From the NCBI GenBank assembly GCA_044892505.1, contig CM097882.1:100130001-100194000 (forward strand): DNA of 64,000 nt. The letters are read 5' to 3'. The notes beneath the pieces were generated by a model. The model was not told the origin of the DNA and ran no database searches. It saw nothing but the letters and a program-made list of their open reading frames with translations. The position numbers and the translations under genes were made by a program. This DNA comes from Schmidtea nova. Taxonomy: Eukaryota. Shown here piece after piece: positions 24,594 through 51,544 of this stretch (positions are counted from its first letter, which is position 1; each line of letters opens with the position of its first letter).

Positions 24594-25270
24594 AGTGCAC
24601 AGAGGGTTAAAAATCAAAATCAATATTATATAAAAATTTATGTACCATCTTGTAGAGAATTGATTTTCAAGTAAAATCAAGAATAAATCTCTTGGAAATA
24701 ACTTCGAGCATTTATAAAAACGTTGAGGTGCAGTGTGCAAAATAAAGAATCAATTCTTTTTAACAGAGTTTTCACATCATCAGATAGAACTGCTGGGATT
24801 ATGGGTGGGTTTTAAGTAATTCAAATAAACAATTAATCATACTAGGGATTCCGCGCCCATAACCATACATAACATGACTACTACACGCGTATGCCCTTGA
24901 CTATTCCCTACTAGTCAAGTTGGTACTGCATACGGTGGTGGAAAAATGATGGGCAGGTGAGCTTTGTCGCCAAAACTACTCCCCATTTATCTTCCCTCGG
25001 GTTCTTGCTGCCGATAGAAGGTCTTACGCATTTACATTCTATGGATGTTCGTTTCCTACTGAATTTTATACTACATATCCTTATGATCTATCACACGCTT
25101 TTCCCAATGACGCTCTCCCTCGCTGTTCTACAAGCCTACGAAAACTCTCGCTGCTAAGTAACGGTCGGTGTAGGTTTTACGATGCGATTTTTAGTTCTAC
25201 GAATTACTTATGTAGTCTTATTTTATTTAGTGAAATCACACGATGAGAGAAAAAATTTACACAGTAATAC

Positions 25271-25276
25271 TTTATT
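25271..25276 (-). terminator. Candidate polyadenylation signal in the LTR
   Basis: AATAAA on the minus strand ~45 nt after the LTR ORF-B stop; a similarly placed AATAAA exists in the diverged LTR (2080-2085). The AT-rich context weakens this. Confidence 0.4.
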
Positions 25277-25317
25277 AAAATAATAAAGACAGGTTGTTAT
25301 GTTACATGGAGATTTTC

Positions 25318-25902
25318 CTATTCAAACTCCAGGCTAATCTCCTGGATTAACTCTGCTTCGGTTAAGGAGTTCAGGTGGTGAATTTGTTCGTCCAGGCGCC
25401 TTGCAAATTCTCGGCGACGACGACGCTGTCGCGATCCCATTCGATGTTTTCGAAGCTGTGGGTTTATGACCGGTGCTGACGCTATTGTTCTCGGGGGATC
25501 ACTGGGAAAAATAGGCAAATCTTCCGTTGTAAGAGTGGGTGCCATGATGATTTCCTCTTCCGTCCCGCAAGCGACATCTTGGTGAGTGCATTGTATCCAG
25601 CGCTGAGCCGTGATCGGTCGGATTAGCGCTCGTAATTCGGAGTCGATGTAACTTCTTGTTACTGCGTTCAGGCAATTTCGGAGTTCTCGCTGGACGGCAT
25701 CCAGTTCCAATTTGGTTGTAGCCAATGCTTCCTGCACTCGCTCGAGTTTTTTCGACTGGTCCTTCATCTGTTCGGGCGAGAACCACTTCGCTTTCAATTC
25801 ATCATTGGCGACCGTGAGTCGCTTGATCTGTCGCTGCTGGTCCCTCAGCTTTCTCTCTTGAATTTGTCCCATGATTTTCTTCGAATTTTCTGAAGTCGGC
25901 AT
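25318..25902 (-). CDS. LTR ORF-B, 194 aa: N-terminal coiled coil, Arg-rich basic stretch
   Basis: ATG start, intact in both LTRs, protein-level homolog at 2192-2665, RQRRRRR motif. Confidence 0.8.
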   Translation of the reverse strand: MPTSENSKKIMGQIQERKLRDQQRQIKRLTVANDELKAKWFSPEQMKDQSKKLERVQEALATTKLELDAVQRELRNCLNAVTRSYIDSELRALIRPITAQRWIQCTHQDVACGTEEEIIMAPTLTTEDLPIFPSDPPRTIASAPVINPQLRKHRMGSRQRRRRREFARRLDEQIHHLNSLTEAELIQEISLEFE

Positions 25903-26218
25903 GTTGTCTGAAGATTATAACGATAAATTCACTGGAGGGCCTATCAACAATGTTATTTTATTTAAACAACTATTATTATTATTAAACGAGATGTATATTA
26001 ATGTTTTTAATTGTTGAGTTCTCTACAAAATTATTTACATATCTAATCATTGAAGACTCAAAAGGTTTATTGAACTAATTTTATATTAATAAATGAATTT
26101 CCTAATGACTATAACAACTACAATACTAAATCTACAGGACAACACTATTAACAAAACGAACATTTCAGAATTCTTTAAAACATTTATTTAACTTAAAAAC
26201 AGGCGGCCATTGATTCAG

Positions 26219-26695
26219 CTATTCATCCTCGGTCATTTTTCCTCGATACGAAAATACCGAGCGGATCTGCAAATTTGTATGGATTCCTGTGTTATTGGAC
26301 GAGGCCTGCTGGAAACGGATTCTCTCAGCTTCTCGGAGGGGTCGGATGGCTGTATTGAACTTGAACCCCAATTCCTTGAAGGTAGAGGCTGGAATGAACC
26401 CCCAATAAATGACACATCTCGGGAATCCACCTTTGTCCAACATCATGATGAACCAGGCGGCGTGCCATGATTCGTATTCCTCGTCTGGAATGATTGGCCA
26501 ACTAGCGCATCCCCGGTACCATACGTGGTGCCGTGGATGGTCCCATACTGTAAATGGACAGGCGGTTTCGAGCTCTCGGCGCCATGCCCACATCTTTTGG
26601 TGAATTTGCTGTAAAATCTCGAACGGAGCCGGCTTTAATGGGCTAACTCGGGCTCGTTCTTGTCGTTTTTTGATAGTGTATCTATGCTTAGCCAT
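26219..26695 (-). CDS. LTR ORF-A, 158 aa, unknown (Trp/His-rich)
   Basis: ATG start, intact in both LTRs, disrupted homolog at ~2880-3350. Confidence 0.75.
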   Translation of the reverse strand: MAKHRYTIKKRQERARVSPLKPAPFEILQQIHQKMWAWRRELETACPFTVWDHPRHHVWYRGCASWPIIPDEEYESWHAAWFIMMLDKGGFPRCVIYWGFIPASTFKELGFKFNTAIRPLREAERIRFQQASSNNTGIHTNLQIRSVFSYRGKMTEDE

Positions 26696-27782
26696 GATTC
26701 CAAAACGATGCTGAATTTTATAATAGTTACAATTTACATCAATAATTAATCATAGTAAATGTTATCTCTCATCGTGATTCCTTTATTATTTGCCTTCCCC
26801 TTAGACCTTAGCTGAAATCAAGAAAAAACTGTTGTTTGTTACAGTATGCATTACTCTCGTGTCTACTTAGATTTATCTGTTTATGATCAATTTGATAGAC
26901 GAAAAATTGATGATTTGTCTGCTTGGATTTTCAAAATATTGGTACCTCAAAACGGAAACTCTCTCCCGTCATGTATCCCTAGTTTATTCGAAAAAACGCT
27001 CTTTTGTACCAAACGCGGTCGACAAAATTTTCCTAAGGTTTATTAGACGTTTATTAAACAGCGGCGCTATGGTGAGGGTGAAAAATTGTGCCTCCTCCCG
27101 GTTAACAACTTCTTTCATATCTTTAAGCTTTATCAAAAAATTCTCGTCCCCTCTGTAGCTAAAATGATCAGAAAATAATTTCCCGGATTTGTTGGGTGTC
27201 CCATGTGCAAGTCTCAACCACTACTAATAAAATTGTGCTTTACTATTTATTACTTTACCGTGTGTGGAGCCCTCGAGCACCACGCCACGGACGGACACCT
27301 TGGGAACCTAAAGCTCCCAACGGCGCAAAATTAATATGATCATTATATATTTTAATGTTGAGTCTAATCACAATAACGTTTAATTCATATAACAAATTTC
27401 AACACATGAATGCATAAACACATAAATAATTAGATCAATAGATAAATGACAAAGCAAATGACACAATCATGAATAAAATAATACAGAAACCAAAATACCT
27501 AATTCGTCTGGGTTTGCTTCGATCGGTTCGTCTAGAATTCAAAGTCTATTTGATTAGTGAGCTAAATTTTACACTCTCAACTGACGTTGTAAGATTAGGT
27601 ATTAAGTCTGTTTTATCCAAAGTCTGATCAGTATTTATACTGATCAGTCTGATCTAGACTGACCAATCGGATTTGGCCGATTTCATGGTGGGTTTTAATT
27701 ATTGTTTTTGATTCTAATTAATTTTTATTTTTTAGATTGTATTCTTCCTTGGAGGTCCGGGTTTCAAAAACAATTATTCAAT

Positions 27783-28188
27783 AACAAGTACTTTTATTTG
27801 GTTTTAATTATTATTATTTGTATTTTATTTGTTTTTAGATGTCTCCTGGGCCCGTTAATATCTATAAATTCATTTATTTTTATTTATAGCTTGTACTTAG
27901 TTATTCTATATTTTTACTATATTATTCCTTTCTTTTAATAAATAAATATTCCCCTTTTTACCTTATTTTTCTCTTTTTTGTTTTAAACAAGTACTTTTAT
28001 TTGGTTTTAATTATTATTATTTGTATTTTATTTGTTTTTAGATGTCTCCTGGGCCCGTTAATATCTATAAATTCATTTATTTTTATTTATAGCTTGTACT
28101 TAGTTATTCTATATTTTTACTATATTATTCCTTTCTTTTAATAAATAAATATTCCCCTTTTTACCTTATTTTTCTCTTTTTTGTTTTA
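27783..28188. repeat. 203-bp tandem duplication in the U3 end of the LTR
   Basis: aacaagtacttttatttgg...ttttgtttta occurs at 27783 and 27986; the same duplication is in the other LTR (53109-53514). Confidence 0.9.
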
Positions 28189-28440
28189 ATTAATCTACTT
28201 TTATTTCATTTTTTTCTCTATTTGGCTGGCCCAACATCACTCGGGGACCCCTAAAATTGCGTCCCGCAATTAATTATACATTTACACCTATATCATCATA
28301 CATAAAAATTAAGCAGATAAATGTCAATTTACATATACACAAAGAATCACGTAAGGTGATAGATTTTATACGTAAGCACAAAGTCATATTATTGTTAAAT
28401 GTAAGTGGATCATACATAAAGTGAATGTAATATATCAGTT

Positions 28441-29013
28441 TTACACAAGCTCTTTGATTTCATGATTGGTATTGGATTGGATTGGGGTTCTTTCGCTGAT
28501 TGTTCGTAGTTCGTAGTGGCTTTGGATTCGGTTTAGGTGTTTTCTCATTCGCTTTTGGGTTCTGATGTCTTGTATTGTTGTTCGGTTCAGGATGACATGT
28601 TTTTGTTTTAAGATCTTCACTCGGTATGATGTTATGAGGATTGTGATCGCGATAATGGTCACGCTGAGTGCAAGGATTATTATAATTGCGATGATCCATT
28701 TTTCTTGATATTCTATCTCTGCTTGGGCTAAGCTTTTCATGGGTTCTCGACCTTCTTTTAGGGTTTTTCTGATTGTTTTCAATTTGATTCGATGTTCATA
28801 TAGGACCTGTTGAAATTTTTCATCGTTTGGGTTGTCTGATGTTATCTGTTGAAGTTGGGTGATTTCTTGTGTTGCTTCGCTGATTAGTTTATCTAGTTCT
28901 TCATAGGTTTTCTCGGGTAGGGCTCGTAGCTCCTTCTCTGTGAGTTGAAGATCTTCTCTTTGTAGGGTGATTGTTATTAGGTATAGGAATATCGGTATTC
29001 TGAGCTTTTTCAT
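28441..29013 (-). CDS. Accessory ORF, 190 aa, predicted type I membrane protein
   Basis: Signal-like MKKLRIPIFLYLITITLQ, helical/coiled-coil ectodomain, TM WIIAIIIILALSVTIIAITILI, basic tail. Confidence 0.8.
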   Translation of the reverse strand: MKKLRIPIFLYLITITLQREDLQLTEKELRALPEKTYEELDKLISEATQEITQLQQITSDNPNDEKFQQVLYEHRIKLKTIRKTLKEGREPMKSLAQAEIEYQEKWIIAIIIILALSVTIIAITILITSYRVKILKQKHVILNRTTIQDIRTQKRMRKHLNRIQSHYELRTISERTPIQSNTNHEIKELV

Positions 29014-29095
29014 ACTGTTTTCTTTACAGGTAGGTCAATACAATTTGATACTACATTTCATACAATTATTTACAAAAATATATTTTCCGCTTTAT

Positions 29096-30157
29096 TTACA
29101 CAATCGTCTCGTTTGGTTCGTAGAAACCTTCGTCCTGAGGTTCTACCTGGTTCGTGGGGAGTGGTATCCAAACAACCCTGCTCCTCCACATTTCGACTTC
29201 ATCTCGATACATGTGAGATATCTGGATCTCCTCGTCCAGCAAATATTCTAGGTAATTTGCTTGTTCTGTTAATGTTTCTATTTGCTTCTCTAATTCGATT
29301 ACTTTTGTCTTTTGTTCGTCTTCTTTCATCATTTTTGTTACGGCTGCCGTTGTACTTGTTTCTTTGGGTATTGCTAGTACTGTTACTCGTTTCTGTTTCA
29401 ATTCTTCGTTTTCTTTCATCAAATTCGTTAAATTTTCCTCATAACTTTGCTTCGCTTCCTTTAACCTTTCTCTGGTTCTTTTTAGCTCTATTTTCTTCTG
29501 GGTAATCACTCCTTGATAACCATTTATATCTCTCTTCATCTCTTCTTCTTTCTGATTCCATATTCCGGTGAGCATAGATTTCAGTTGTTCTTGATTAGCT
29601 AGTTCTTCTCCCATTCTTTGAACTTGATAGGTTAGTCCTTTAATTTTCTTTGCTTGTTCGCGGATAAATTGCTGTCTTTTTGTATTCCATCTTTTATTTA
29701 ACACTTCCTGGTTGATTTTTTGCTCTAACTCGTCTTTTAGTTCATCGATCTCTTTATATAACTTCCAATCATCACTATAAGCTGTCCTTTCTATTATTTC
29801 TCTAGCTTTTTCGTAAGATTCTTTCGCTTCTTTCTTCCAGTATCTTGCTTGTTCTGTAATCGAATACATCTTGTGTTCAGCTTCCATCTGCTGTCTGTCT
29901 CTTTCCTCTCGTCGCTCTTTCATCATTCTCTGGTAATATTCCTTTTGTTGTTGTAGCATTTTGTATACTTCTTCTATTTTTTCTCGACTTCTTTGACTTG
30001 ATCTTTCCGCTTCTTTTAATAATTCGGCTTGTCTCTCTATCTCCTCTTGCTTTCCATAATATGCATTGACCCATATTTCAATCTGTTCTAGATGATCGCT
30101 AATCGCTTCTGCTTGATGCATCGTAATTTCCTGTAAGCATACTTCGATATTTCCCAT
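29096..30157 (-). CDS. Accessory ORF, 353 aa, long coiled-coil protein
   Basis: ATG start, E/K/Q-rich heptads throughout, no globular motif recognised. Confidence 0.8.
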   Translation of the reverse strand: MGNIEVCLQEITMHQAEAISDHLEQIEIWVNAYYGKQEEIERQAELLKEAERSSQRSREKIEEVYKMLQQQKEYYQRMMKERREERDRQQMEAEHKMYSITEQARYWKKEAKESYEKAREIIERTAYSDDWKLYKEIDELKDELEQKINQEVLNKRWNTKRQQFIREQAKKIKGLTYQVQRMGEELANQEQLKSMLTGIWNQKEEEMKRDINGYQGVITQKKIELKRTRERLKEAKQSYEENLTNLMKENEELKQKRVTVLAIPKETSTTAAVTKMMKEDEQKTKVIELEKQIETLTEQANYLEYLLDEEIQISHMYRDEVEMWRSRVVWIPLPTNQVEPQDEGFYEPNETIV

Positions 30158-30272: not shown

Positions 30273-31655
30273 TTACGTCAACCATTCTTTTCTATCCGCT
30301 TTCTCATTCCTTTCCATTTCTATGTATAGGGTGTCTGCATATAATCGTTCCCATAGGCTTTCTTTCGTTATAAACATTGGTTCTCCCGCTGCTAATCCAC
30401 ATTCTGTGGTTGGTTTCTCGCTCGTACTCGCATGTTTCTCTGTCTCAAAGAATTTTTCTACTGGTTTTGTTACACTTCTGATTCTAATGATGACTCCTAC
30501 TTTCAAGGGCCATTCTACTAGGTCGTCGTATTCTCCTTTACATAGCGAGAAAAATATTGACACATGTGTTCCTCGTCCTCTTCCGTCTCCATTTGGGTAT
30601 AGCTTCAATCTCACTTTAGCTCCGTTTCTCCATAAATAAAATGGTGGGCTTATTACTGCTGTTTTCGTCATATTTCTGGCCTCTGTTAATTTGTTTCTAA
30701 AATCTGTCACTTTCCACACATATGGTGCGATTGGTAACTTTTCCTCGGTATCCTGGGTGAGTTTGTTGTACTGGATTTTCATTCCTTTAGCCAGTTCTTC
30801 GATAGCTTTTATCTTTTCCTCCATCTTTTCTCGTGTTAGTTCGAATTGCTCTCTGGTTTCCAACAGTAGGTTTACCATTATCTTGTGTGACTCTATTTCT
30901 CTTTCTAATTTTTTGATTGTTTGTTCGGTTTCTTTTGTTGCTTCGTTTGTCATTTCCGCATGCTTTAGTAATGCTTCCTCCAGATGTTGTTTCATGGTTT
31001 TTTGCGTTCTTTTCTCCATACATCCCTGTTTGTTATAAGGACATTCCCTTGGTTTCTCCGTGCACACTTTCCAATGTTCTTGTAATTTTACTTCTACCGT
31101 TATCTCGCATTCGTTTGAACATATTCCTACATATTGTCTACATACTTTCTCCTCTTTTATATTCAGGTGTTCTTCTTCGATCTTTCTCCTCGTTTCTCGA
31201 GTTCCACAATATTCGCATAGACTTTCCTCTTCTTTACATTCATCTTTGTGCTGCTCTTTATTCTTTATAGTTATTTTTTGTTGGCATTTGTTACATTCAG
31301 TTCTCTTCTCTTCGCAGTTCTCCAGATGGTTCTCGAGATCGCGTATTTGTCCTTGCCATATACATGGTTGATTTATACATTCGGTTTTCGTGTTCATGAT
31401 TTCTCTCTGAGTTGCTCTATCTGGTCCGGTTTCTTCGAATTTTATTTGACCTTCTTTGCATTCTGGACATTCTGGTGGTCTTTTCATACTTAACTCGTGT
31501 ATGCATTTGGTACATACTCTGCATCCGCATAGGGTTTGTCTTGGTTTCAATATTATGTTTTTACAATTTACACAAGTGAGTCTCAGACTCCATTTCCTGT
31601 TCTCGGCTCTCAAAATTTCGATTATCCGCTCTTCGGCTTTTCCTTCTGTATTCAT
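30273..31655 (-). CDS. TRAF: Full-length intronless TRAF (RING, TRAF zinc fingers, coiled coil, MATH/TRAF-C), 460 aa
   Basis: RING CVNC..CGCRVC..C..CPEC; fingers such as CINQPCIWQGQIRDLENHLENC; TRAF-C YVWKVTDF..SPPFY..YPNGDGRGRGTHVSIF..GEYDDLVEWP. Confidence 0.95.
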   Translation of the reverse strand: MNTEGKAEERIIEILRAENRKWSLRLTCVNCKNIILKPRQTLCGCRVCTKCIHELSMKRPPECPECKEGQIKFEETGPDRATQREIMNTKTECINQPCIWQGQIRDLENHLENCEEKRTECNKCQQKITIKNKEQHKDECKEEESLCEYCGTRETRRKIEEEHLNIKEEKVCRQYVGICSNECEITVEVKLQEHWKVCTEKPRECPYNKQGCMEKRTQKTMKQHLEEALLKHAEMTNEATKETEQTIKKLEREIESHKIMVNLLLETREQFELTREKMEEKIKAIEELAKGMKIQYNKLTQDTEEKLPIAPYVWKVTDFRNKLTEARNMTKTAVISPPFYLWRNGAKVRLKLYPNGDGRGRGTHVSIFFSLCKGEYDDLVEWPLKVGVIIRIRSVTKPVEKFFETEKHASTSEKPTTECGLAAGEPMFITKESLWERLYADTLYIEMERNEKADRKEWLT

Positions 31656-31745
31656 TCTACAATGATATATACACTTGATTTGTTATCTATTTTTTGATTT
31701 TTCTTGTTTTTGTTTTACATATTTACAATTTTTCGCTTTATTTAT

Positions 31746-32102
31746 CTACGGCTCGTTTGTTGAATCTGGTTCTGGGTCGTTTTCTGATCTGTTTATTGCC
31801 CAATTTGTCCATCCATCCTCTGCTTCTTCTGTCTCTCCCATTGTTAAACGGTCTATCTCTATTGCTTGTCTCTGATTTATGTCGCTCATCACTTGATTCT
31901 CTCTGGTAAGTTGCGTTATCAATCTCTGTTGCTCCTCGATTCTGTGGAGTTGTTCAAAACTATTATTATAACTTTCGGATAACAAATTCTGTTTCTCAAT
32001 TAACTGATTTTGTAGTGAGTTGATTGTTCGTATTAACATGTCACACTGGGCTTTCCATCGCATAGCCATAGTAGTTTCTGCTATTTCTTCCTGTTCGTTC
32101 AT
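31746..32102 (-). CDS. Accessory ORF, 118 aa, coiled coil with acidic tail
   Basis: ATG start, Q/E-rich heptads, collinear with the other accessory ORFs and set between AT-rich spacers. Confidence 0.7.
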   Translation of the reverse strand: MNEQEEIAETTMAMRWKAQCDMLIRTINSLQNQLIEKQNLLSESYNNSFEQLHRIEEQQRLITQLTRENQVMSDINQRQAIEIDRLTMGETEEAEDGWTNWAINRSENDPEPDSTNEP

Positions 32103-32227: not shown

Positions 32228-35200
32228 CTATATCACCATCACTGTCTCTCCTTCGTATCGCTCTTCATCTTCTATTTGTCTCCAAAATTCTTTGCCTTTC
32301 GTCCTCCTTTGAAATTCTTTCTGTACTTCTTCCGGTAATTCTATACTGTAGTTCATAATCTTTATATCTGGCCAATGTGTTATTGGTTTCTTGTTGAATA
32401 CATCATATATCCATATTATTAATAATACTGTTATTACTGGAATAGTTGCTGCTAGTATTCCCAGACCAATTAGTTCTCTAACTTGTTTGTTTACGTCCAT
32501 CTTCGTAATTTCACTCTGGTTAATCATTGGTCCGTATTGTCCCTTTAGTTTATTTAGTAGTTGTTCTCGTTCTTGTTGTTTTCTTTTAACTTCTTTAATT
32601 ACTTCTTCCGGCGTCCATCTTGCGTAAGGGTCTATTACTACTTGTTCCGCGTCCATTTGTTTCGTTGTCTGACTTATTTCTTTAAATTCGAGTTTTCTCA
32701 CTTTCCCTTTGGACGTTGAGTTTACCGGTGTGTAGTACGTTTCGCATCTTTCCTGCTGATTTCCTAATATGTCCGTCTTTTCTACCGCACATATCTCGTA
32801 TTCGCTATTGAATTTCAGATTTCTGATACTTATTTCCTCTTTTCCTTTCACGTTTCCACAGTCTCGTGGCTGTCTTTCCCTTTGTTTCTGAACTATTACC
32901 CAACATATTTCTAACGTTTTATTGTCTATTCTCCATAGTATAAGAGTTGCTGTAGTATTCTTTTCGGTTCTTATTTGTATTTCTTGGTTTTTCTGTTGTC
33001 CATTAGGTTTAAAAGTAGTGGTATACCTCGTTTTTCCTTTGTTCCGTTGTCTTCTGCTTTTTCGCGTTGTCTTTCCAATTCTTGTTCTGGTGGGTGTTTT
33101 ATATATTTTGCATTCCAGTTCATTTACTGTTATTTTGTCGCTCTTCCTGATCAGGCATATTTCGTACGTTTGATTACTTTCTAACCCTTCTATCTGTATT
33201 GTGGTTGTTCCTCTGTTTGTTCGACATTGCGGCGGTGTATTCTGGTTTGTTTTCTTTTCCTGCTTCTTCCAGCATACGCCTTTGACGTCCGGTTCCATTC
33301 CGGTTAACTCTAACATTATAGTTGTTCTCCGTTTGGTGCGTTTATTTCTTCTTCCTCGTCGTATGAACTTTATTGTTTCCCCAGGTTGAAATGTTTTACA
33401 AATTGTCGTTCCTTTCTTGTGTCTTTCTTTTTCTAGTAAACATAGTTCATACGTCCTGTCTGCTTTTACTTCTGATATCTTGGTTACTTTATTTGTTTTC
33501 CTTTTCCGACTCGTCTTTATTTCGCTTACGCCAATTTCTTCGTTGCTTCTGGCCCAACACTTTGGGTTGGTGTTTTGGGTGTCGTTCATCTCTGTTACTG
33601 CCATTGTGTCAATGTCTATCCCTTCTTCTAACCGTTTTAACATTGTTAATATGAGTGCTAAACATAGTAATTCTGCTTGGTAGGTCACTCTTTCAGTTTC
33701 ATTTGTGGTTACTCTTACTTCGGGCCTGTCTATGGTAATTTGTATAGTTGGCGTTGTTCGTCTGTCTATTGTCTGAGGTTTCTTGTTTTTTGTTCCTTGT
33801 GTCTCTGTTCTTCCACACTTTCCTACGACATAGTCTCCTTTGGATGACTGCTGTACTGTTATGGTTACTTTGGGTGTTAGGTAATTTGCACATGCAATTG
33901 TCTTATGTGATCTCGGATCCTTTGGTTTCCGAACGGTGCACATTCTGTACCAAGTATCTAGCTCTAAGTCATCGATCTCTATGATTTCTTGTTCATATTC
34001 TGAGATCCTGCAATCCATTGGACTATTTTGTCCCGATATTTTGTCCTTTTTTGACCAACATACTCGTTCGATTCCTTTTGCGTTTCCAATTTGTATTGTC
34101 GCTTTTTCTTCACATATCATTCCTTGAGTTGGACTAATTAAGGTCATGATTACCGTTAGTAATAATAGTTCTGGTTTAAAGAATGGGTTTATTGTTTGTT
34201 TGTAGCCTGTTCTTTTTACTTCGTTTTTATTTTTATAGTTGTTGTTTCTTTGTTTCCCAAATTCATTGTTCTTATCATTTTTCTCTGTGTCCCTTCCTTT
34301 CTCTTCACTGTCCTCTTTATCTGATAACTCATGATCCTCTGGATTTTCTCGAGTACTATCGTCGTCGTTTCCTGTATTGTCACCTCCCCTTTGGTCGTTG
34401 AAAATGTCGTCCTCGACATTAACTGCTTCTATCATTTTTTCATACGTTATGGTTGTGAGTATACTTGCTTCGTATTCTTGTGTTACTGCCTGCTTAGGTA
34501 TTTCCTTATCGGTTAATTTACAATCTAGAATCTCTTTCTTGGCTTTTATCCAATTATTAAGGTACGTTTTCATTAGTTCTTTCCATTTGTCCGTACGTTC
34601 TGTTTCCTTTGGGTTGTTTGTGAATCGTAAATCTTTTCTTCTCATGAAGATGTCTATTATCTTTGGCCATTTGTTTATTATTAATGCACACTTTATATAC
34701 AAATTTTGGCCTTGTTCCATGCACTCGTTGATCCTGAATGCTGGTTCATTGGTGTTTGGGTTCATCCAATTGAGTATTGCTTCAGTTAGTTCAGCGTTAT
34801 GCATCATGGAATGTACGCTAGCTTTTTTAACTGTCCTTGTAAGGTATTCTATTTCCTCCTGATTTGTGATTGTTTTTATGAAATTTATCACCTCCCAATT
34901 GTGCGCTAACAACGCTACGTCTAGTATTGAGCTGTCTTTGTTAGTTCTTCCCATGAGTCCTGCACCTGCTTCGTACAGTTCCTGTAACACTCGGGTTTTT
35001 GTGTTCGCTCTTGCTGCGAATATCATGAGGGTATCTCCCTTTTTATCTTTCATGTTCATGTCACTTCCGCAATCTTGCATCAACCGTGCAATTTCGACTA
35101 CCCTCCTATCTTTTCCTGCTCGTAAGGCTCTATGTATTGGCAATACTCCATTCTTTGTTAATAAGAAAGTCACTGGCATTTCTCTTTTTATGATCATCAT

Positions 35201-38200
35201 ATCGTTTTCATTGTAAGTTCCTTCCGCATATGCGTGTACCTTTTCCACAATTGATCCGAGTATCTCCAGTGTATGTTTAGAATTCTCGAATTCTGGTAAT
35301 AGTTCTTTTGCTTTGTCCTGTATCGCATCTAACCTTTCTTGATATGGTACCTCTGCGCTGAAAAGTGGTGTAAATTTCCTTTTGCTTTCTCTTTCCTTTC
35401 GACCTAGGAATTGTTTGCATTTTTCGGGGTGGTTTAATATGTCTACTAGTTTGTCATACTCTTCCTCCACCGTTTTGTACTTATCTTGAAAATTGGATAT
35501 ATCTTTGTAAGTTATCGACTTGGTTAGCGATTTTGCACACCATTCCCTAATTTTCCTGAATAATGCTTCTTTTTCGCTTTCGAATTTACACTCCTCTTTG
35601 TTTTTGGAAATTGTGATCTTTCTTCTGTCCAATAATATTAACAGTGTTTTCTGATCACAAACTAATTTTAATAGGAATTGAAATAACGCGTTTTGTCCTT
35701 TACTGTATACTTCGTTTATATTTAATACCCATGTATCATTTTCGGATCTTTTCCATTTTATTAGCTTGCGTATTGTTTTGCAGTTACCGATTTTTATTGC
35801 CTCCTTGATTATATCACCTTTGATCAGTTCGTCTATTTCCCAAGTGGCCTTCTCGATTATTTGTTTGAGCATTATCTGATTTGAGCTCCATATTGCGTGA
35901 TTCAAGACTGTTTTGTTTTCTCTATCGCGTTCCGTCCAGTTGAAATCGGCATTTATCAAAAGGTCTATTATTGCTTTATCCGATTTGTAGATGGCTGCTA
36001 CCATTAATGGTGTTTCTTGTTCGCTATTCCCAAAACCAAGGTGTTGGTTTGTTTCCTTAGCGATTTTTAGAAATTCTTTTACTCTCTCTACTTCTCCCCA
36101 TTTTATGGCGTTATGTAATGCTGGTTGTCCTCCTATGTCTTCTAGTGAAAGTATTTCTGGAATCTTTTCCAGTAGTTCTGAAATGACTGGTTTTGTTGGT
36201 AGTCCCCTTGCGTAATCACTAATTATCGACTGAATATCTCTTAATATATCGTCTCTGACATGCCATTTTCCCATTATTTCTCTGGCTTTTAGTACAATTT
36301 CCTTGTTTCTTTTTTCTCGTTGATTGTTCTCTGCTTCGGTACTTTCATTGGTTGCTCTGAGCATATTCATTCTGGCTGTCTGGGATCTGGTTATTATTCG
36401 TTCTTCTGGCGCTGTGGTTATTGTCTTTGGTACTTTTTTACATCTGCATGTATTAACGTATATTGGTCGTATCAATGGTCGATTAACAAGTTTTACCTTC
36501 ACATTGTTTTCCTTTTTGTATATAACTTCGTAAGGGCCTTTTCCTGGTCTTTGTAGTTTTTTAACGGTTCCTGGTATTATTTCTGGGGTTTCTATCATCA
36601 CCCAATCTCCTGGTTTAAGATCATTTGTTTTAACATTTTTCTTTTGATCGTGTAGGTCCTTGTAACTTTCTTGGTAAAACTTTATGTTCAGTTCAGCTGT
36701 CTTCCATATCTCTTGCATTCGTTCTTTGAATTTGGTGACGTAATCATCTTCCTCCATATATTGAGACAAAGGTGGTTGATATTCAAGATCTATTGGCATA
36801 TTGCATTCCCTTCCATACATTAATTGAAATGGACTCAATTTTGTTGCTGCGTGTGTCGACATTCTGTATGCCATTAGACATAGCTTTACGTATTCATCCC
36901 AATCTGTTTGGTGTTTGCTTACATAATTGGATAACATTCGAATCAATGTGCCGTTAAATCTTTCCGTTTGTCCATTGGTTTGCGGATGATATGGTGACGT
37001 TCGTAATTTAGCTATTCTGAAGTAATTTGTTACTTCATCTAGTATTTCGCTCATAAAATTTGTTCCTTGATCTGTTAGTATTTGTTTCGGGGTTCCGTAT
37101 CGACAACATATTTCCTCTACTAAAATTCTTGCTACGGTCTTTGCTTTTTGATCCGGCATCGCAAATGCTTCAGGGAATTTAGTCAAATAATCCGTTATTA
37201 CCAATATATATTGATTCCCGTTTAAACTTTCTGGCAATGGTCCTATTACATCCATCGCAATGGTAGTCATTGGTTCCGCTGGTATTGGCATGGGTTTTAA
37301 GGGATTTTTCCATTTCTTCCCACTATCCTTTCTTGTGGCACAAGTTAAACAGTTCTTTATCCATTCCTTTACGTCTTCGTCCATTGTTGGCCAATAATAT
37401 TTCTGTCTCATACGATCTAATGTTTTCTTAGAGGACATGTGTCCTCCTAGCTTTCCGTCATGGTATTGAGTTATTATCTCTTTTCGTCTATTACTTGGCA
37501 GACACATTAATCGTTTTTCTCCATCTTGTATTAACAACCATCCTTTTTCTATTGTGTATCGGTGTTGGTATTTCCTCATGTGTTCTTTTAACTCCGCATT
37601 GTCTTCGAATACATCCATATTTCGTGAGCTTAGAAATTCTATGATGGGTTTTAGTTCTTTATCCTCTTGCTGATCTTTCTTTAACTCACTGAAATCCAAG
37701 TCCTCTGCTATCACTATGCATATTCTTTGCACTTCTGGGTCTGTTAGTTCTGGAAACGTTAATCTTGACATACAATCTGCGTTGGCATTCGCTTTTCCTG
37801 ATTTGAATTTTATATCTGGTGAATATTCTTGTAATTGCATCGCCCATCTCATCAACCTGCTGGATGTTTCCTTGTGTTGTCCTAGCCATACAAGTGGTTG
37901 ATGATCCGTGGTTATGCATATAACGTGTCCCCATAGTAGATATTTAAAGTGTTTTATTGCTAATATTATCGCCAATGCTTCTCTTTCCGTTACTGAATAA
38001 TTCTTCTCGTGTTTCTTGAATGTTCTGCTATAATATCCGATTACCCGCTCTTTTCCCTCGTCATCATATTGTCCTAACACTGCTCCTGCTGCATATCCAC
38101 TTGCGTCGGTTGCGAGTAAGAATGGCTTTTTAAAATCCGGGTGAACCAATATTGGTGCAGTTATTAACTTATCTCGTAATGTTTCGAAGGCTGTTTGTTG

Positions 38201-41200
38201 TTCGCTTCCCCATATGAACGATACGTCTTTCTTTACTAGCTCCTGGATTGGTTTTGCAATTCCTGCGTAATCCTTTATGAATTTTCTATAGTAACCGCAT
38301 AATCCGAGAAATTCTTGGATCTGCGTTATCGTCTTTGGTACTGGACATTCTTTTACTTTATCAATGTTTCTGGGATCTGGTTCCTTTCCTTTTGCGGACA
38401 CAATATGTCCTAAGAATGTCACTTTCTCTTTTGCCCAATCGCATTTCGATGGTTTGAGCTTGAGTTTCCATTGTCTCAATCTAACAAATACATCTCTGAT
38501 ATCTTGGATGTGTTGTTCAAATGTGCTTGAGTAGATCAGTAGGTCGTCAATGTAAACCATGCATTGTTTTATGCCGTGGGTAACGAAATTCATACATCTT
38601 TGAAATGATGCTGGCGCATTGGTTAGTCCGAATGGCATTTTCCTAAATTGGTACAAGTCTCTTCCGATAGTGAAAGCAGTTTTCTCTTTGTCTTCCTCCT
38701 TCATTTTAATTTGCCAGTATCCGCTTTTCAAATCCAATGATGTAAAATATGCCGCTCCTTGTAATGTCAATAACATCTCGTTGATGTCCGGTAATGGGTA
38801 GGTATCCCTTTTTGTAACTGCATTTAATCTCCGATAATCGATACAAAATCGTTGTGTTCCGTCTTTCTTTTTCACCATTACAACTGGGAATTGCCACGGT
38901 GAGCAGCTTGGTTCAATTACTTCTGCGTCTAGCATTTTCTGTACCTCTGCTTCTGCTACTGATTTTTGCGCTTCAGCTAACTTGTATGGTCTTAACGCAA
39001 TAGGCGTTTCGTCTGTTAGGGGAATCGTATGTAGTGTGACGTCGCATGTCCCTAGATCTAAATCGGATGCTGCGAATATATCTTTATATTCTATCAGTAA
39101 TCTTTCTAGCTGCTTCTTTTGATCCTCATTTAATAGTTGGCTATCAATGTTCCAAGTGGGTTCCTCCTCTTTTACTCCTTCTTTTATTGGTATTTCGATA
39201 TCCATCATTGGAGTTAGTTTACCTAGTCTTTCATTTTCATAAATTATTTTATCCTCTTCATCGAAATTTACTACAGTTATTGGGATTTCTCCGTTGTCAT
39301 TCGCACTCACTAATCCCCTTGCCATTGGCAACGACTTTCTCTTTTCAAATCTTTTACTGGGTTCAAAAATCATGTCACCTTCTATTGTAGGGTCTATTTT
39401 TACGAAGCATATTTTCTCTCTCCGTGCTGGTACGATTATTTGTTTCGAACTTGTTACTTTTGCTTCTATTGCGCATATCTGTCCTGTCCTATCCTTTAAT
39501 CTCATTGTTCCGAGGTCAATAACTATTTCTTTAAATAATGCTGGCATCAGATCCGTGCCTATAATGCATGGTACGCTCAGTGCTGGTATTACTGCTACGT
39601 ACGTTTCGATTTCCGTGTTTTGATGTTTTATCTTTACCCACCATCTTCCGGCAACTTCTACTACTTCTTTACTGCATGCTATTACGTGAACGTTGGTTCT
39701 CTCAATATCCCGTCTTTGTTCTTGTGGTATCCATTTTATATCTATTGCTGAGATATTTGCTCCTGTATCAATCATCGCTTCAATTTCCCTTCCGTTAATT
39801 TCGATTGTTGTAGTTAATACTGGACCGGTGTTTGATGACATTACTGCAATTGTATGTGAGTCCCCTTGCGGATCTACGCTTCTGCACCGTCTCGTTCTAT
39901 AGTCTTCTGGTATCATAGGATATATGTTTGTCATCGGCATCATTTGCATTGTATTTTGTCTCATCCCTGGTGTTGGTTCTTGGTACATAGTTGGTGGGGG
40001 TGCGTAACACTTCCACATTTCCGCTGGATTCTTTTCGACATACTGTGGTACTTGATTTTTAAATACTTGACCTCCTTCGTTATCATCATCATCGTCGTCA
40101 CTGGAATCGTCTTGGGTTCTGTACCCTTTCATTCTTTCCCATAGTCCTTTTCTCTCTTTCTTTAGTTGTTGTCTTGCTTGCTCGTTATTCATTATCTTTT
40201 TAAATTTTCGTCCCACCTCTTCATCGGTTCCTTTCATTTTTGCCAGTATTTTTAGGAGTCTCTTTATTCGGTGAATATCTTTTGAATGACCGTGTAATAC
40301 CATTGTTTTAGCCAAAAATGGTAAGAATCCTACCACCAATTTCCAATTTACTTTCTTTTCTCTTTTATAGATGTCAAAACAGGCTAACATTTGCGTTATT
40401 ATTACCCGTATTATTTGTATAATTAGTATAACACCAAGTATTCCTGCCATCATTTGTCCAAATATTAAAAATCTTCCCCACATCGCTTTCATCATGTTTT
40501 CCGTTGCCTTCTTAAAGTGGGCTGGTGACAATAATAATTCGTAATTTGGTCCACCTTGGTAATTTGTTCCTCCTGTTATTGTTACAATGCTGGATAACAC
40601 CGCTTCCCTTCTTGCTGGAAATAGTATGTTTTGTCTTGCTGCTTCTAAATCCTTTGCACTATAGAATCCCATATTGCTTACATCTACGTCTTTAAATTTT
40701 CTTCCTTTTGATAGTTGCATTAATTCAAATTCTCTTGGTGCTGGTACCTCTGTTCGTGACGGAAACATAACCCAATTTCCGTCTGGTTTTTGGTATAGTG
40801 GTCCATATGCGTTGCTGCAATTGAAAGGGTTTGGTTCGAAGCTTACTGGATTTATGATTCTTGTCACTGGTTGCACATATCTTACCTTCCCTTTGTATTC
40901 GATTTCTAGTTCGTTTGTACACTGCCCTGGTTGTAATTTTGTCATTGTCGCTACCTTCGCATTTGTCTTTTTACATATGTATACATACATGACCTCTCCG
41001 ACTACCCTTCCAAAATGACCTTCTCTTAATGGTAATAATGGCATTGCACTGTCCGGGTTTGTGATTGCTACCGCTAGTTTTGTCTTTAATATTTCCCTAT
41101 TTAATATGCAATCGTTGTTTATTAAATCGTAATACACTTTTTGTAGTGACGCTTGTCCTCTATGGAATAGAAAATCCATTTTATTGTTCATGTAAAGGTG

Positions 41201-44200
41201 TAATTTAACATCGTTCGTGTGTACTTTGCGTTTCGCACTAGGTACTTCTTGTTTTGATACAAAAATGCCGGGGTAGTTGGTTTCCAACATGGCTACTCCG
41301 CATTTCAAGGCTGTTTTTCCTTTTACAAACCTCATTCCGATATCTGCATCTGAGGTAATTAGTACCGTTGGTGTATTTCTCATTTTAATTTGTTTTTCTT
41401 GTGTTCGGGTTTCAATCTTTTTCTCTCCCCGTACTGTGTCTTGAAGTATTTTTCCTCTTGCTGCCTCGTCTTCTTCTTCCTCTTGGAAGGTTTTCCCTTG
41501 TATCTCATCGAATTCTGCTTCCTTTAACAGTTGTAGTTGACATTCCTTTCCTCGTATCTGGTAGGTTAGGGTTGACATACCAGTCTGACAAGTGTTTGAC
41601 TCGATTTTGCACATAGGTAGAGTTTTCATTTCTCCCGTCGTTGGATCGAAGAATGCCTCGTACGTTTTTAGTTCCACTGTATACGTATCTATTACCACTA
41701 GGTTTGTTGCTGCTACTCCGAATATTGGATATGTTGCTCCTTGGCAGTACCCTTCTCCTCCCGTAATAGCTCCTGCTACATAATATGTTTGTTGCAATAT
41801 CACTCCCGTTTTTCCTCTTATCTTTACTCTATCTCTAGTCTCTACTTCTCCATGTTTAAATAATTTTTCACAGTCTTCTCCTTGCAGCATTACCGATTCT
41901 CTTTCCGTTCCTGGCATCACGATTGCTGAATAATGGCGGTGCCCACAATAAAAAGCAAATCTGGTTTTATAAATTTTGCATTCTCTGACCATTGTTCTTA
42001 TCAGTTCAGCTTCCTGATATACGTGGTATAATTGTCTCTTTTTTAATGTTTTTAGCTCCGTTGGGGTTGCGTCTTTACATTGTTCTGTCCCTCGTAATGA
42101 GTATTTTTCCCCTAATGCCATTTGATCGCAATCGAATACTTCAAATGCTGTTGCGCCGTCAGTACTAATCATCCATATTAACATCATCATAATAATGGAA
42201 CTCAAGTTTAGTGACGATTTCCCGTTTCCTGTTCCCGACTTTTCCTTTTCCAATTCTCCCAATATCTCTTCGAATTTCCTTTTCATATTTTTGGCTTGGT
42301 TTTTCTTTTGGTTCGTTTCTGTGAATGTTTCCCATCCTCCTTTACTGATGATGTACGGTTCTATTTCCTTCTCTATAATTTTGGCTGTATTCTTTATATG
42401 TCTTTCAAGTGCTGTGGGTTTCAGTCGACCTCTACTCAGTGTCAGCAGATTGTAGATGGTGTATGCCATAGCTATTAAATATTTGTTATCCGTCTCTGCT
42501 CCTTCCGTTAACTTCTTTATCAACATCGTGGTTCCTTGCCAATCTAGGTGGTTTGACCTTGTCTTCTCTTTTATTAATTCTGGTAGGATTGGTGCGATGG
42601 CGCTATGCAGTGATTTCGCCCTTTCGCTTATTTCGTTTATTCTCCACCATTTCTTTAATTCTGGATCGATTATTGCCAGTATTTCCATTAACATCTTTGA
42701 TATCCATTCCTCGCCTTGGTATGTTTGTGTTGTTTCTTTTTCTTTCGTTTCGGCTATTTTATTTAGTTTCTTTAAACACAAATCCCATTGATCCCGTCTT
42801 TTTTCCTCTCTTGATTTTATAACTACATTTGCTGGATCCATCTTGGGTCTACCTCTAGGTCGTTTATCCATTGTCGTGCCCGTTTCTACCAATCTTGTTT
42901 CTCGTCCAGTTTCTTCTGTGACGTCTCTTGGTTCATTGGCTCTTTCTTCTAACCATCTTTCCATTTCTTGTGTGAATTGTACATTTTCTACATTTGCCCT
43001 CCTTGCTTCCTCTTCTGCTATTTCATTTACTTCTTCGATGATTATTTCTTGTTCAACTTCATCTTCGGTGTTGGTTACCGGTATTGCTGTTGGTAATTCT
43101 TGAATTCTTTCGAAAATATTATCATCCTTCTCTTTTGTTAGCTCTATTAACTCCTCTAACATATCATCGCTATCTGTAAAAATTTCGTCTACATCGTATG
43201 GTTCTGGTGGTGTTCTTTCTCTTGTCTCTCTTGGTGTTGTTTTAGCTTGTTCTGAGCTTGTTCCTGGAGTCATTACCGATTTCATTGGGCTCGGCGTACT
43301 CATACTTCCTTTTGGTTTCTTTTCCTCTTTCAATTTCAATGGTTGGCCTGCTATTGCTGCCACTGTCAATGTATTTGCGATATCTAATTGCGCTGGCGTT
43401 ATTCCAATTTCCAAGCTGTTATCTAATGATCGTCCTTGGTGTTGTAAATGGAATGGTGGTTCATATCTCAATTTCTTTTTAATGTCTCGAACTTTCTCCG
43501 CTATCCCTACCCAAAACTCTTCCTTTTCTTGGTTCGGATATACTATTCTTAGGTGTACTTTCTGTGGCGATTCCTGCGAGAATTCTTGGTTTCTCCATTT
43601 TTTAATTACGTGATCCAATTGTTCTGGACACCACTCGTTAACTCTTTTGTATTCGGCGATTGCTTTTGCTACTTTACGCAAGCATGTTATGTCTTCTCCA
43701 TTAACTACGAAAAAATCTGCGAGACCTTTTACTACTTTTCTCTTGCCGTGCGCATTGGTTTTTAATATTTCGACAAATTCTTCCGTTTTTTGTTTTTCTC
43801 TTTCCAACCACATGGTTGTCGTTTCTGGTCCGTCTAAATCTGCTGGCATGGCTTTTCTTGTTACCATACAGACTCTTCCGGTTTCCGGTTTGTGATCGTC
43901 TTCTATGCCTATTCCGTATTCCTCTTCGTATTCGCCTGCTTTTGGTTCCCAACATTTTCCTCGTTCGTTCCATTGTTTTTCTACAGGTGTTGGTAATCGT
44001 CTGTTGAGATTGAGTTCTTCTAATACGTCTTCCCATTCTGGCCAAATCCGCCAATTTCGATAAATGTCTACTATTTGTTGTAATTTATGCACAACTTCTT
44101 TTTGTCGTTCCCGTTCTCTTTTCTCATCCTTAGCAGTTTCTCTTGGTGTATCGTCCATTCTGATAACGTGGATGGTTTGGTGATTATCCCATATACCAAT

Positions 44201-49326: not shown

Positions 49327-49788
49327 TTATAAATAAACTACAATTCTATCAGCTACAGAGAAATTGCACATGGGGCACTCATCACACTTATTCGCACAGT
49401 TTTTACAGAATCGAAAATGTCCGCATGGTAGAAACATTATTTGGATTTCACTGTCTTCGCATATGTAACATTGTTTATATTGTTTTGCTGCTTCGACCCC
49501 TTGTGACATCCATCGGTTATATGTTAGGCTTAACTGCTGTTCTATATGTCGGCATCTGATATTCAACTCGGCATCCTCTAATCGTGCTTTGTACCATTTA
49601 TATCGCGTATTTATATCGAGTTTATTTACTTTCTCTATGATTTTTATTAACTCAGTTGTTTCCTCAGTTTGTGTCGTAGGTTCCTCATATTCGGATGCTC
49701 TTATTCGGGTTATTTTTTCGCAGACTGTCTCAAATGTATCGTTCTCGGTGTTGAAAAATTCCTCGATTTCTTTCAGTTTTTCCTCCAT
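49327..49788 (-). CDS. Upstream accessory ORF, 153 aa, with a C-terminal IAP/MDM2-type RING finger (no BIR)
   Basis: CYICEDSEIQIMFLPCGHFRFCKNCANKCDECPMCNFSVADRIVVYL at the extreme C-terminus; ATG start. Confidence 0.9.
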   Translation of the reverse strand: MEEKLKEIEEFFNTENDTFETVCEKITRIRASEYEEPTTQTEETTELIKIIEKVNKLDINTRYKWYKARLEDAELNIRCRHIEQQLSLTYNRWMSQGVEAAKQYKQCYICEDSEIQIMFLPCGHFRFCKNCANKCDECPMCNFSVADRIVVYL

Positions 49789-50092: not shown

Positions 50093-50110
50093 ATCCCGGC
50101 TGAGCCCCCA
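50093..50110 (-). promoter_or_regulatory. Primer-binding site, tRNA-Pro
   Basis: Minus strand TGGGGGCTCAGCCGGGAT lies 6 nt inside the 5' LTR boundary and matches 16/18 of the MLV tRNA-Pro PBS TGGGGGCTCGTCCGGGAT. Confidence 0.88.
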
Positions 50111-50643
50111 AATTTATGCTGGGATTATGGGTGGGTTTTAAGTAATTCAAATAAACAATTAATCATACTAGGGATTCCGCGCCCATAACCATACATAACA
50201 TGACTACTACACGCGTATGCCCTTGACTATTCCCTACTAGTCAAGTTGGTACTGCATACGGTGGTGGAAAAATGATGGGCAGGTGAGCTTTGTCGCCAAA
50301 ACTACTCCCCATTTATCTTCCCTCGGGTTCTTGCTGCCGATAGAAGGTCTTACGCATTTACATTCTATGGATGTTCGTTTCCTACTGAATTTTATACTAC
50401 ATATCCTTATGATCTATCACACGCTTTTCCCAATGACGCTCTCCCTCGCTGTTCTACAAGCCTACGAAAACTCTCGCTGCTAAGTAACGGTCGGTGTAGG
50501 TTTTACGATGCGATTTTTAGTTCTACGAATTACTTATGTAGTCTTATTTTATTTAGTGAAATCACACGATGAGAGAAAAAATTTACACAGTAATACTTTA
50601 TTAAAATAATAAAGACAGGTTGTTATGTTACATGGAGATTTTC

Positions 50644-51228
50644 CTATTCAAACTCCAGGCTAATCTCCTGGATTAACTCTGCTTCGGTTAAGGAGTTCAG
50701 GTGGTGAATTTGTTCGTCCAGGCGCCTTGCAAATTCTCGGCGACGACGACGCTGTCGCGATCCCATTCGATGTTTTCGAAGCTGTGGGTTTATGACCGGT
50801 GCTGACGCTATTGTTCTCGGGGGATCACTGGGAAAAATAGGCAAATCTTCCGTTGTAAGAGTGGGTGCCATGATGATTTCCTCTTCCGTCCCGCAAGCGA
50901 CATCTTGGTGAGTGCATTGTATCCAGCGCTGAGCCGTGATCGGTCGGATTAGCGCTCGTAATTCGGAGTCGATGTAACTTCTTGTTACTGCGTTCAGGCA
51001 ATTTCGGAGTTCTCGCTGGACGGCATCCAGTTCCAATTTGGTTGTAGCCAATGCTTCCTGCACTCGCTCGAGTTTTTTCGACTGGTCCTTCATCTGTTCG
51101 GGCGAGAACCACTTCGCTTTCAATTCATCATTGGCGACCGTGAGTCGCTTGATCTGTCGCTGCTGGTCCCTCAGCTTTCTCTCTTGAATTTGTCCCATGA
51201 TTTTCTTCGAATTTTCTGAAGTCGGCAT
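50644..51228 (-). CDS. LTR ORF-B copy (194 aa)
   Basis: Translation identical to 25318-25902. Confidence 0.8.
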   Translation of the reverse strand: MPTSENSKKIMGQIQERKLRDQQRQIKRLTVANDELKAKWFSPEQMKDQSKKLERVQEALATTKLELDAVQRELRNCLNAVTRSYIDSELRALIRPITAQRWIQCTHQDVACGTEEEIIMAPTLTTEDLPIFPSDPPRTIASAPVINPQLRKHRMGSRQRRRRREFARRLDEQIHHLNSLTEAELIQEISLEFE

Positions 51229-51544
51229 GTTGTCTGAAGATTATAACGATAAATTCACTGGAGGGCCTATCAACAATGTTATTTTATTTAAACAACTATT
51301 ATTATTATTAAACGAGATGTATATTAATGTTTTTAATTGTTGAGTTCTCTACAAAATTATTTACATATCTAATCATTGAAGACTCAAAAGGTTTATTGAA
51401 CTAATTTTATATTAATAAATGAATTTCCTAATGACTATAACAACTACAATACTAAATCTACAGGACAACACTATTAACAAAACGAACATTTCAGAATTCT
51501 TTAAAACATTTATTTAACTTAAAAACAGGCGGCCATTGATTCAG

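What the first reader, a model, noticed from the sequence alone, without database searches (positions are those of the whole stretch)
30273..31655. Retroelement-borne full-length TRAF with a Cys-for-His RING variant
Seen: an intact, intronless RING-ZnF-coiled coil-MATH gene inside the element, with RING core CGCRVC instead of the usual CGHRFC. Inference: a captured host TRAF under selection. Element amplification could account for part of the expanded TRAF repertoires reported in flatworms, so some annotated 'host TRAFs' may be mobile.
Basis: partly seen in the sequence, partly recalled or inferred. Interest (0 to 1): 0.75.

Follow-up and report, generated by a model that had tools for sequence, protein, structure and literature searches.

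The report
Host TRAF gene riding giant retrotransposons
A giant flatworm jumping gene of the known Burro kind carries an intact, conserved copy of a host cell-signalling gene (TRAF), which it and its relatives have spread to about 1,700 places in this genome and which likely helps the cells that carry it survive; the flagged cysteine is simply the normal planarian form of the gene.

Summary
The gene is real: an intact 460-aa RING-zinc finger-coiled coil-MATH TRAF lies in a 28.8-kb Burro-type gypsy element with identical 3,446-bp LTRs. It is under purifying selection (dN/dS 0.11-0.13). Six element lineages carry it and form one clade inside triclad TRAFs, so it was captured once. A RING-core pattern finds 1,735 element-type copies; 1,177 belong to a lineage without gag, env, RT or IN in the copies read, where TRAF sits beside a BIR-RING IAP gene. 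The Cys-for-His RING is not an element novelty: host-type CGCR[FY]CxxC occurs 177 times in this genome, the His form 0 times. The host TRAF expansion is mostly tandem and outside these elements, and no named planarian TRAF falls in the element clade. MATH/TRAF cargo in Burro is already published (PMC6431247), and this scan reported the full-length gene before on other DNA. Likely role: a pro-survival adaptor or ubiquitin ligase (untested). Verdict: new variant of a known kind.

The parts
30273..31655 (-). Full-length TRAF ORF, 460 aa
31458..31574 (-). RING, C28-C66, eight Cys ligands (C4C4); C45 (31521-31523) stands where vertebrate TRAFs have His
   Evidence: all eight Cys kept in 6 of 6 lineages
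30960..31379 (-). TRAF-type zinc-finger array (aa 93-232, about five fingers by ligand spacing)
   Evidence: ligands invariant in 6 of 6 lineages
30756..30971 (-). Predicted coiled-coil helix (aa 229-300)
30315..30722 (-). MATH/TRAF-C domain (aa 312-447); the host FKPD..CY loop is replaced by FETEKHASTS
50117..53562 (-). 5' LTR, 3,446 bp; holds two ORFs (194 and 158 aa) with no Pfam match
24791..28236 (-). 3' LTR, identical to the 5' LTR; target duplication GAAC at 24787-24790 and 53563-53566
50093..50110 (-). Primer-binding-site-like 18-mer 6 nt after the 5' LTR, kept in lineages B and D; a tRNA-Pro match is recalled, not tested
49327..49788 (-). 153-aa ORF with a C-terminal C3HC4_3 RING (the kind found at the end of IAPs), no BIR
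   Evidence: E 6.7e-12
32228..47191 (-). 4,987-aa polyprotein: gag with CCHC knuckle, weak Bcl-2-like stretch, fusion glycoprotein (env), protease, RT, RNase H, integrase, ankyrin repeats
   Evidence: Bcl-2 match only E 0.11, none in the PDB search
31746..32102 (-). Accessory ORF, 118 aa, directly upstream of TRAF (homologue there in all six lineages); dN/dS about 0.1
29096..30157 (-). Accessory ORF, 353 aa, no Pfam match; dN/dS 0.06-0.10 against lineage B
28441..29013 (-). Accessory ORF, 190 aa, with hydrophobic stretches; dN/dS about 0.23-0.25
31656..31745 (-). 90-nt AT-rich spacer with TGTAAATA and an acceptor-like TAG one base before the TRAF ATG; the same layout in the other three spacers

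Best explanation
This is a host TRAF gene that a giant Burro-type gypsy LTR element captured once and keeps under purifying selection as a separate accessory gene; it is likely made from its own spliced message and likely acts as a trimeric adaptor and ubiquitin ligase that tilts the carrying cell's death and immune signalling towards survival. Shown: the gene, its place in the element, selection, a single clade nested in triclad TRAFs, the Cys RING inherited from the host family, and, in the most abundant lineage, a BIR-RING IAP gene directly behind it. Inferred: expression by splicing to an acceptor just before the ATG; trimer formation and E3 activity (from TRAF2/3 biology, recalled); partnership with an IAP, element-made or host-made, like the vertebrate TRAF2-cIAP module (recalled); and benefit to the element through survival of the stem cells that pass it on.
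For: Domains and fold. dN/dS 0.11-0.13 against 5 lineage-B copies at dS about 0.9-1.1, with ratios of 0.03-0.20 per domain where computable. Shared-variant pN/pS 0.15 (lineage A, 35 copies), 0.10 (D, 29), 0.06 (F, 9); only stop-free, indel-free copies were counted. 28 of 29 Cys/His positions in aa 1-234 are invariant across 6 lineages that are 35-78% identical. Tree: elements one clade 98/95, inside the triclad clade 100/100. 80 of 92 scored copies have no internal stop. Lineage F keeps TRAF (intact in 9 of 11 copies) and the IAP (full length in 7 of 11) although no gag, env, RT or IN was found in the 2 copies read upstream of the cassette, and its LTR pairs are 99.8-99.98% identical in 3 of 3 copies: the gene is kept where there is no own particle to serve. 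Company of other death regulators: RING ORF, weak Bcl-2-like stretch. Burro1's BIR-RING protein is reported to protect planarian stem cells from apoptosis (Lee 2026, seen only as cited in PMC13465017); host TRAF RNAi raises cell death (PMC7586133). YAG lies within 6 nt of the ATG in 4 of 4 accessory ORFs against 60 of 492 ATGs (window chosen after seeing the pattern), and all 6 TGTAAATA of the 21.9-kb interior lie in or at the four spacers.
Against: No expression or activity data. The window's own element has no BIR, so any IAP partner must come from elsewhere. The MATH loop that binds receptor peptides in vertebrate TRAFs (contact residues recalled) is altered in lineages A, B, D and E, which fits a decoy or a new ligand as well. 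No splice donor is conserved across A, B and D. Purifying selection shows a function but not which one. The Bcl-2-like match is weak (E 0.11).
Confidence: 0.6

Rival explanations
1. The element's TRAF is a decoy: it would co-trimerise with host TRAFs or occupy their partners and so damp innate immune or antiviral signalling instead of relaying a survival signal.
For: The host FKPD..CY loop of the MATH domain is replaced in 4 of 6 lineages while the scaffold is conserved (MATH 88% identical between A and B). The element encodes a fusion glycoprotein and so has a virus-like cycle.
Against: All RING and finger ligands are kept in 6 of 6 lineages; a pure decoy would not need them (that RING-less TRAFs act as dominant negatives is recalled). 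Lineage F keeps an FRPN loop and sits beside an IAP.
Confidence: 0.24
2. The TRAF serves the element's own cycle as a ubiquitin ligase, for example by marking a restriction factor for degradation or helping particle release.
For: Intact C4C4 RING, a recognised RING type with an E2 complex on record (PMC3166285 passages). The element also carries a second RING ORF and ankyrin repeats.
Against: It is retained under the strongest constraint in lineage F, where no gag, env, RT or IN was found, and it keeps the whole signalling-adaptor layout.
Confidence: 0.13
3. The gene is a neutral passenger that looks intact only because the insertion is recent.
For: This copy is very young (identical LTRs); no RNA evidence was obtained.
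Against: dN/dS 0.11-0.13 over dS near 1; open frames in six lineages down to 35% identity.
Confidence: 0.03

Closest known systems
Burro / GYPSM1 giant gypsy-like LTR elements of planarians (Jurka 2007 and Grohme 2018, neither seen; as described in PMC6431247 section 7, read whole)
   Same: About 29 kb, one ORF of about 5,000 aa, env between gag and pol, ankyrin repeats, Bcl-2-like and IAP-like cargo, a MATH_TRAF_C domain.
   Different: The review reports a MATH domain inside the polyprotein (S. mediterranea) or in an upstream accessory ORF (D. tigrina). Here a whole RING-finger-coil-MATH TRAF is a separate ORF downstream of the polyprotein. The in-polyprotein MATH type also occurs in this genome, without RING (L163).
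Burro1 B-IAP (Lee et al. 2026 Dev Cell; paper not held; seen only as passages of PMC13465017)
   Same: A captured cell-death gene carried by a Burro element and reported to protect stem cells.
   Different: That cargo is BIR-RING. The window's element has a RING-only ORF and a TRAF; lineage F has TRAF and BIR-RING side by side. Whether that paper mentions TRAF could not be checked.
Triclad host TRAF2/3-like proteins (Dendrocoelum lacteum TRAF-2/-4/-5, Dugesia japonica TRAF2-like A; Smed-TRAF-2A/B of PMC7586133)
   Same: Same domain order, same CGCR/CGCK RING core, 27-36% identity, same clade.
   Different: Chromosomal, often tandem; they keep the FKPD..CY MATH loop. The element genes form their own long-branched subclade.
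Vertebrate TRAF2/TRAF3/TRAF5
   Same: Best PDB matches by sequence and fold.
   Different: C3HC4 RING with His; 28-30% identity over the TRAF domain.

Membership tests
Burro giant gypsy elements | LTR element of about 30 kb | tested here: met
   28,772 bp with 3,446-bp LTRs and a 4-bp target duplication
Burro giant gypsy elements | One polyprotein of about 4,900-5,100 aa with gag-PR-RT-RH-IN in gypsy order | tested here: met
   4,987 aa; CCHC 274, RVP 2461, RT 2773, RH 2994, IN 3232-3403
Burro giant gypsy elements | Env-like fusion glycoprotein in frame between gag and protease | tested here: met
   Monjiviricetes_fusion E 1.3e-67 at aa 1935-2276
Burro giant gypsy elements | Ankyrin repeats and a MATH_TRAF_C domain | tested here: met
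   Ank_2 E 2.4e-12; MATH in a separate downstream ORF
Burro giant gypsy elements | BCL2-like motif | tested here: inconclusive
   Pfam Bcl-2 E 0.11 over the last 31 profile positions; no PDB sequence match
Burro giant gypsy elements | BIR domain | tested here: not met
   None in the 8 window ORFs scanned; present in lineage F (E 2.2e-16). So this is Burro-like, not Burro1 itself.
Burro giant gypsy elements | Sequence identity to Burro1-4 reference elements | not testable with these tools
TRAF proteins | C-terminal MATH/TRAF-C domain | tested here: met
TRAF proteins | N-terminal RING and zinc-finger array | tested here: met
TRAF proteins | Coiled coil (TRAF-N) before the MATH domain | tested here: met
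   predicted helix 229-300 in a single-chain model
TRAF proteins | Trimer formation and receptor-peptide binding | not tested
   No complex was folded; the peptide loop differs from host TRAFs
TRAF proteins | E3 ligase activity | not testable with these tools
   needs an assay
C3HC4 RING | His at the fourth ligand | tested here: not met
   Cys45; the RING has the C4C4 pattern, a listed RING type (PMC3166285)

The most novel reading that the evidence does not exclude
Planarian Burro elements carry a working TRAF-IAP survival module. In this genome a non-autonomous lineage of about 1,200 copies has shed gag, env, RT and integrase but keeps TRAF and IAP side by side under strong selection: a satellite element that spreads by supplying an anti-death signalling complex to stem cells, so that mobile TRAFs outnumber host TRAFs about ten to one and take part in host signalling.
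Probability: 0.3. Interest if true: 0.8.

Novelty: new variant of a known kind. Interest (0 to 1): 0.5.

Why it matters
It extends a known cargo (a MATH domain in Burro) to a whole, selected signalling gene, and gives a direct test of whether these elements rewire the host's death pathway beyond the reported IAP. In practice, TRAF counts, expression values and RNAi results in planarians with this cassette could be confounded by hundreds to over a thousand mobile copies. It also settles that the Cys RING is the planarian norm and that the host expansion is mainly tandem, so the element does not explain it away.

Tried and rejected
Expression: no RNA holder listed. Three runs of unknown kind laid on 24700-33300 covered 30 of 30 bins and showed no joint at any accessory ORF start; this says nothing on splicing. 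Complex prediction (TRAF trimer; TRAF coiled coil with the lineage-F BIR) was not available, so there is no verdict. Word-index protein searches missed most planarian relatives (12 hits; 8 hits; none for the IAP); the HMMER library search found them. The metagenome scan gave 2 loci, neither with element genes, so the context of P0033/P0071, the sisters of the element clade, stays unknown. AU test: joining element TRAFs with the C2 tandem genes was not rejected on the MATH domain alone (p 0.154), although the free trees keep them apart. The first careful tree did not finish; one search is a smaller finished one (28 rows; long rows L141, L167, P0109 and seven others left out). The 'polyCterm' rows were out of frame and are not used. 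The strict regex (9 of 83 Cys) missed several triclad RINGs, so alignments were used instead. No splice donor is shared by lineages A, B and D. Rejected: Cys-for-His as an element adaptation; intronless structure as proof of retro-capture; chance ORF. Grohme 2018 and Lee 2026 are not held; no supplements were opened.

Full report
1. Observation. The ORF at 30273-31655 (-) is one open frame of 460 aa. It has a MATH domain (Pfam E 2e-21), a TRAF zinc-finger match below cut-off and an N-terminal RING that aligns to TRAF2, 5 and 6 in the PDB, with Cys45 opposite their His. The model is confident (pLDDT 88.5; pTM 0.43, as expected for a long rod) and matches TRAF2/3/5 folds.

2. The carrier. Two identical 3,446-bp LTRs (24791-28236, 50117-53562) with TG...CA ends and a GAAC target duplication bound a 28,772-bp element. 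On the minus strand it reads: 5' LTR, a 153-aa RING ORF, a 4,987-aa polyprotein (gag, fusion glycoprotein, protease, RT, RNase H, integrase, ankyrins), then four accessory ORFs of 118, 460 (TRAF), 353 and 190 aa, and the 3' LTR. This is the anatomy of planarian Burro elements in PMC6431247 (section 7 read whole). The host is a triclad planarian, judged from the nearest TRAFs. Identical LTRs make this a very recent insertion.

3. Copies. The protein search of the own genome scored 92 candidates: 87 at 86-100% identity and 5 at 78-79%; 80 of 92 have no internal stop. I fetched 50 of the 92; all 50 lie in element sequence and all 50 read CGCR[VIL]C. Searches with Dendrocoelum TRAFs revealed further lineages with the same gene order: C (43% identical), D (53%) and E (67%). 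LTR pairs of 99.6-99.97% were found for 1 B, 2 C and 2 D copies, 5 of 5 tested; E was not tested. The union of four protein and family searches is 214 loci. I fetched 17 of the 1,735, and all 17 have TRAF homology with the 118-aa ORF homologue upstream. A sixth lineage, F (36% identical), accounts for 1,177 matches. These are motif counts, not counts of intact genes.

4. Lineage F. In 3 of 3 copies the LTR pair (4.0-5.6 kb aligned) is 99.8-99.98% identical. In the 2 copies whose stretch between the 5' LTR and the cassette was read, no gag, env, RT or IN homology was found: a RING ORF is followed by an ORF that runs from a SUMO-like stretch to the protease and ankyrins. TRAF is followed directly by a 389-aa BIR-RING IAP. 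TRAF is intact in 9 of 11 copies, the IAP full length in 7 of 11. The BIR family search returned 150 scored matches, most in 399-aa frames like F's. F looks like a non-autonomous element whose coding content is mostly host-type regulators.

5. Selection. Window against five B copies: dN/dS 0.11-0.13 at dS 0.89-1.06; against six diverged A copies 0.20-0.39. Among stop-free, indel-free copies, pN/pS of shared variants is 0.15 (A, n 35), 0.10 (D, n 29), 0.06 (F, n 9) and 0.17 for the F IAP (n 23); private variants give 0.19-0.44 (the filter favours intact copies). Of 29 Cys/His positions in the first 234 residues, 28 are invariant in all six lineages.

6. The RING variant. Host-type CGCR[FY]CxxC matches 177 times in this genome and CGHR[FY]CxxC 0 times (controls 2 and 1). 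Of 22 host-type RINGs read, 21 have Cys, 1 Ile and none His. Dendrocoelum TRAF-2, -4 and -5 have CGCR, as do TRAF3-like proteins of Asterias, Anneissia and Antedon. C4C4 is a listed RING type (PMC3166285 passages). The element inherited the residue.

7. Origin. In a finished tree of 28 proteins the six element TRAFs are one clade (98/95) inside the clade of triclad TRAFs (100/100), with two unnamed proteins, P0033 and P0071, as sisters (99/97). The element rows differ in amino-acid make-up, which the tool flags. The four named planarian proteins group with host genes. In a quick MATH-only tree the in-polyprotein MATH of a Burro1-type element of this genome (L163, 99.7% LTRs, no RING found) joins the element clade at SH-aLRT 93, which hints that both cargo forms come from one capture. 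Direction (host to element) follows from the nesting and the outgroup root.

8. Does it explain the planarian TRAF expansion? At DNA level elements supply most TRAF-like loci. But an independent host expansion exists. Of the 150 best MATH matches, my classification by hand gives 73 host-type (63 in C2:405-455 Mb), 75 element-cassette and 2 polyprotein. 69 of 74 CGCR[FY]C[FY] hits lie in C2:403-455 Mb, many in tandem and with RING and MATH in separate frames. None of 46 host-type loci read has the cassette's ORFs within 1.5-3 kb; two have an unrelated pol fragment on the other strand and one an LTR fragment 2.3 kb away. These genes form their own clade (SH-aLRT 95), though an AU test did not reject joining them with the element genes (p 0.154). 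Published counts for S. mediterranea are 121 MATH domains (PMC6109357 passages) and 282 contigs (PMC7586133, first of six parts); the latter's main text has no hit for 'transpos', 'burro' or 'retro'. Burro transcripts could add to such counts, but I could not test that.

9. How it likely works. Expression: each accessory ATG has a YAG within 6 nt (4 of 4 against 60 of 492), and all 6 TGTAAATA of the interior fall in or at the four 82-125-nt spacers; similar spacers recur in B to F. This fits separate messages made by splicing with alternative 3' ends, or operon-like trans-splicing; no RNA was available and no shared donor was found. Function: an intact RING, fingers, coil and MATH point to a trimeric adaptor and ligase (recalled from TRAF2/3). 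The company it keeps (IAP, RING, weak Bcl-2-like stretch), the reported anti-apoptotic role of Burro1's BIR-RING (via PMC13465017), the death phenotype of host TRAF RNAi and retention in a lineage with no replication genes favour a survival role (0.6). The altered MATH loop in A, B, D and E keeps a decoy role open (0.24). S. mediterranea Burro1 is transcribed, above all when piwi-2 is lost (PMC8532177 passages), which shows that such elements can be expressed but not that this gene is.

10. Novelty. MATH_TRAF_C in Burro has been noted since 2007, once as an accessory ORF. Eight literature searches showed no listing that describes a full-length TRAF downstream of the polyprotein or a TRAF-IAP pair, but Grohme 2018 and Lee 2026, the two papers most likely to do so, are not held. 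This scan reported the full-length gene before, twice in this genome and once in another. New here are the six-lineage tree, the element and host counts, and lineage F. Class: new variant of a known kind; interest 0.5.

Noticed in passing
L185-L198, L205-L212 (G000:C1, e.g. 1513400-1538800): Lineage F: about 1,177 motif matches, LTR pairs 99.8-99.98% identical, no gag, env, RT or IN in 2 copies read; TRAF directly followed by a BIR-RING IAP and at least four more accessory ORFs.
   Followed up: partly
window 29014-29100, 30158-30272, 31656-31745, 32103-32227: All 6 TGTAAATA of the element interior lie in or at the four spacers, and each spacer ends in an acceptor-like AG just before the ATG; possibly 3'-end signals, a forkhead site or a Pumilio site (labels recalled).
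   Followed up: partly
L243-L251, L253-L256, L258 (dispersed on C1 and C2): A second route of mobility: 14 of 20 loci fetched share a 150-nt end starting TGGTCGC that is not Burro; 13 of them carry only the 5' half (RING and fingers, no MATH) of three different host TRAFs (89-98% identical to L051 in six), some next to what look like proteasome alpha-subunit fragments (recalled). It looks like a gene-fragment-capturing element.
   Followed up: partly
L163, L164, L183, L184 (G000:C1:97568000-97598900): A Burro1-type element with MATH inside a 4,706-codon frame, 99.7% identical LTRs and no TRAF cassette coexists with the six cassette lineages.
   Followed up: partly
L058-L067: Lineage C copies have different internal deletions upstream of the 120-aa ORF yet mostly keep an open TRAF frame.
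   Followed up: no
G000:C2:403-455 Mb and C2:5-16 Mb: Large tandem clusters of host TRAF genes with CGCR RINGs at both ends of C2.
   Followed up: partly
window 25318-25902, 26219-26695 and 50644-51228, 51545-52021: Each LTR holds two ORFs (194 and 158 aa) with no Pfam match; homologues occur in LTRs of other lineages although LTR DNA diverges faster than the interior.
   Followed up: no
window 21927-24791 and 53579-53881: The element sits among inverted repeats (22220-22365 with 24646-24791; 21927-22220 with 53579-53881), suggesting insertion into nested DNA transposons.
   Followed up: no
window 48083-48852: Three tandem-repeat arrays (units of about 44, 41 and 30-31 nt) lie between the RING ORF and the polyprotein start.
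   Followed up: no
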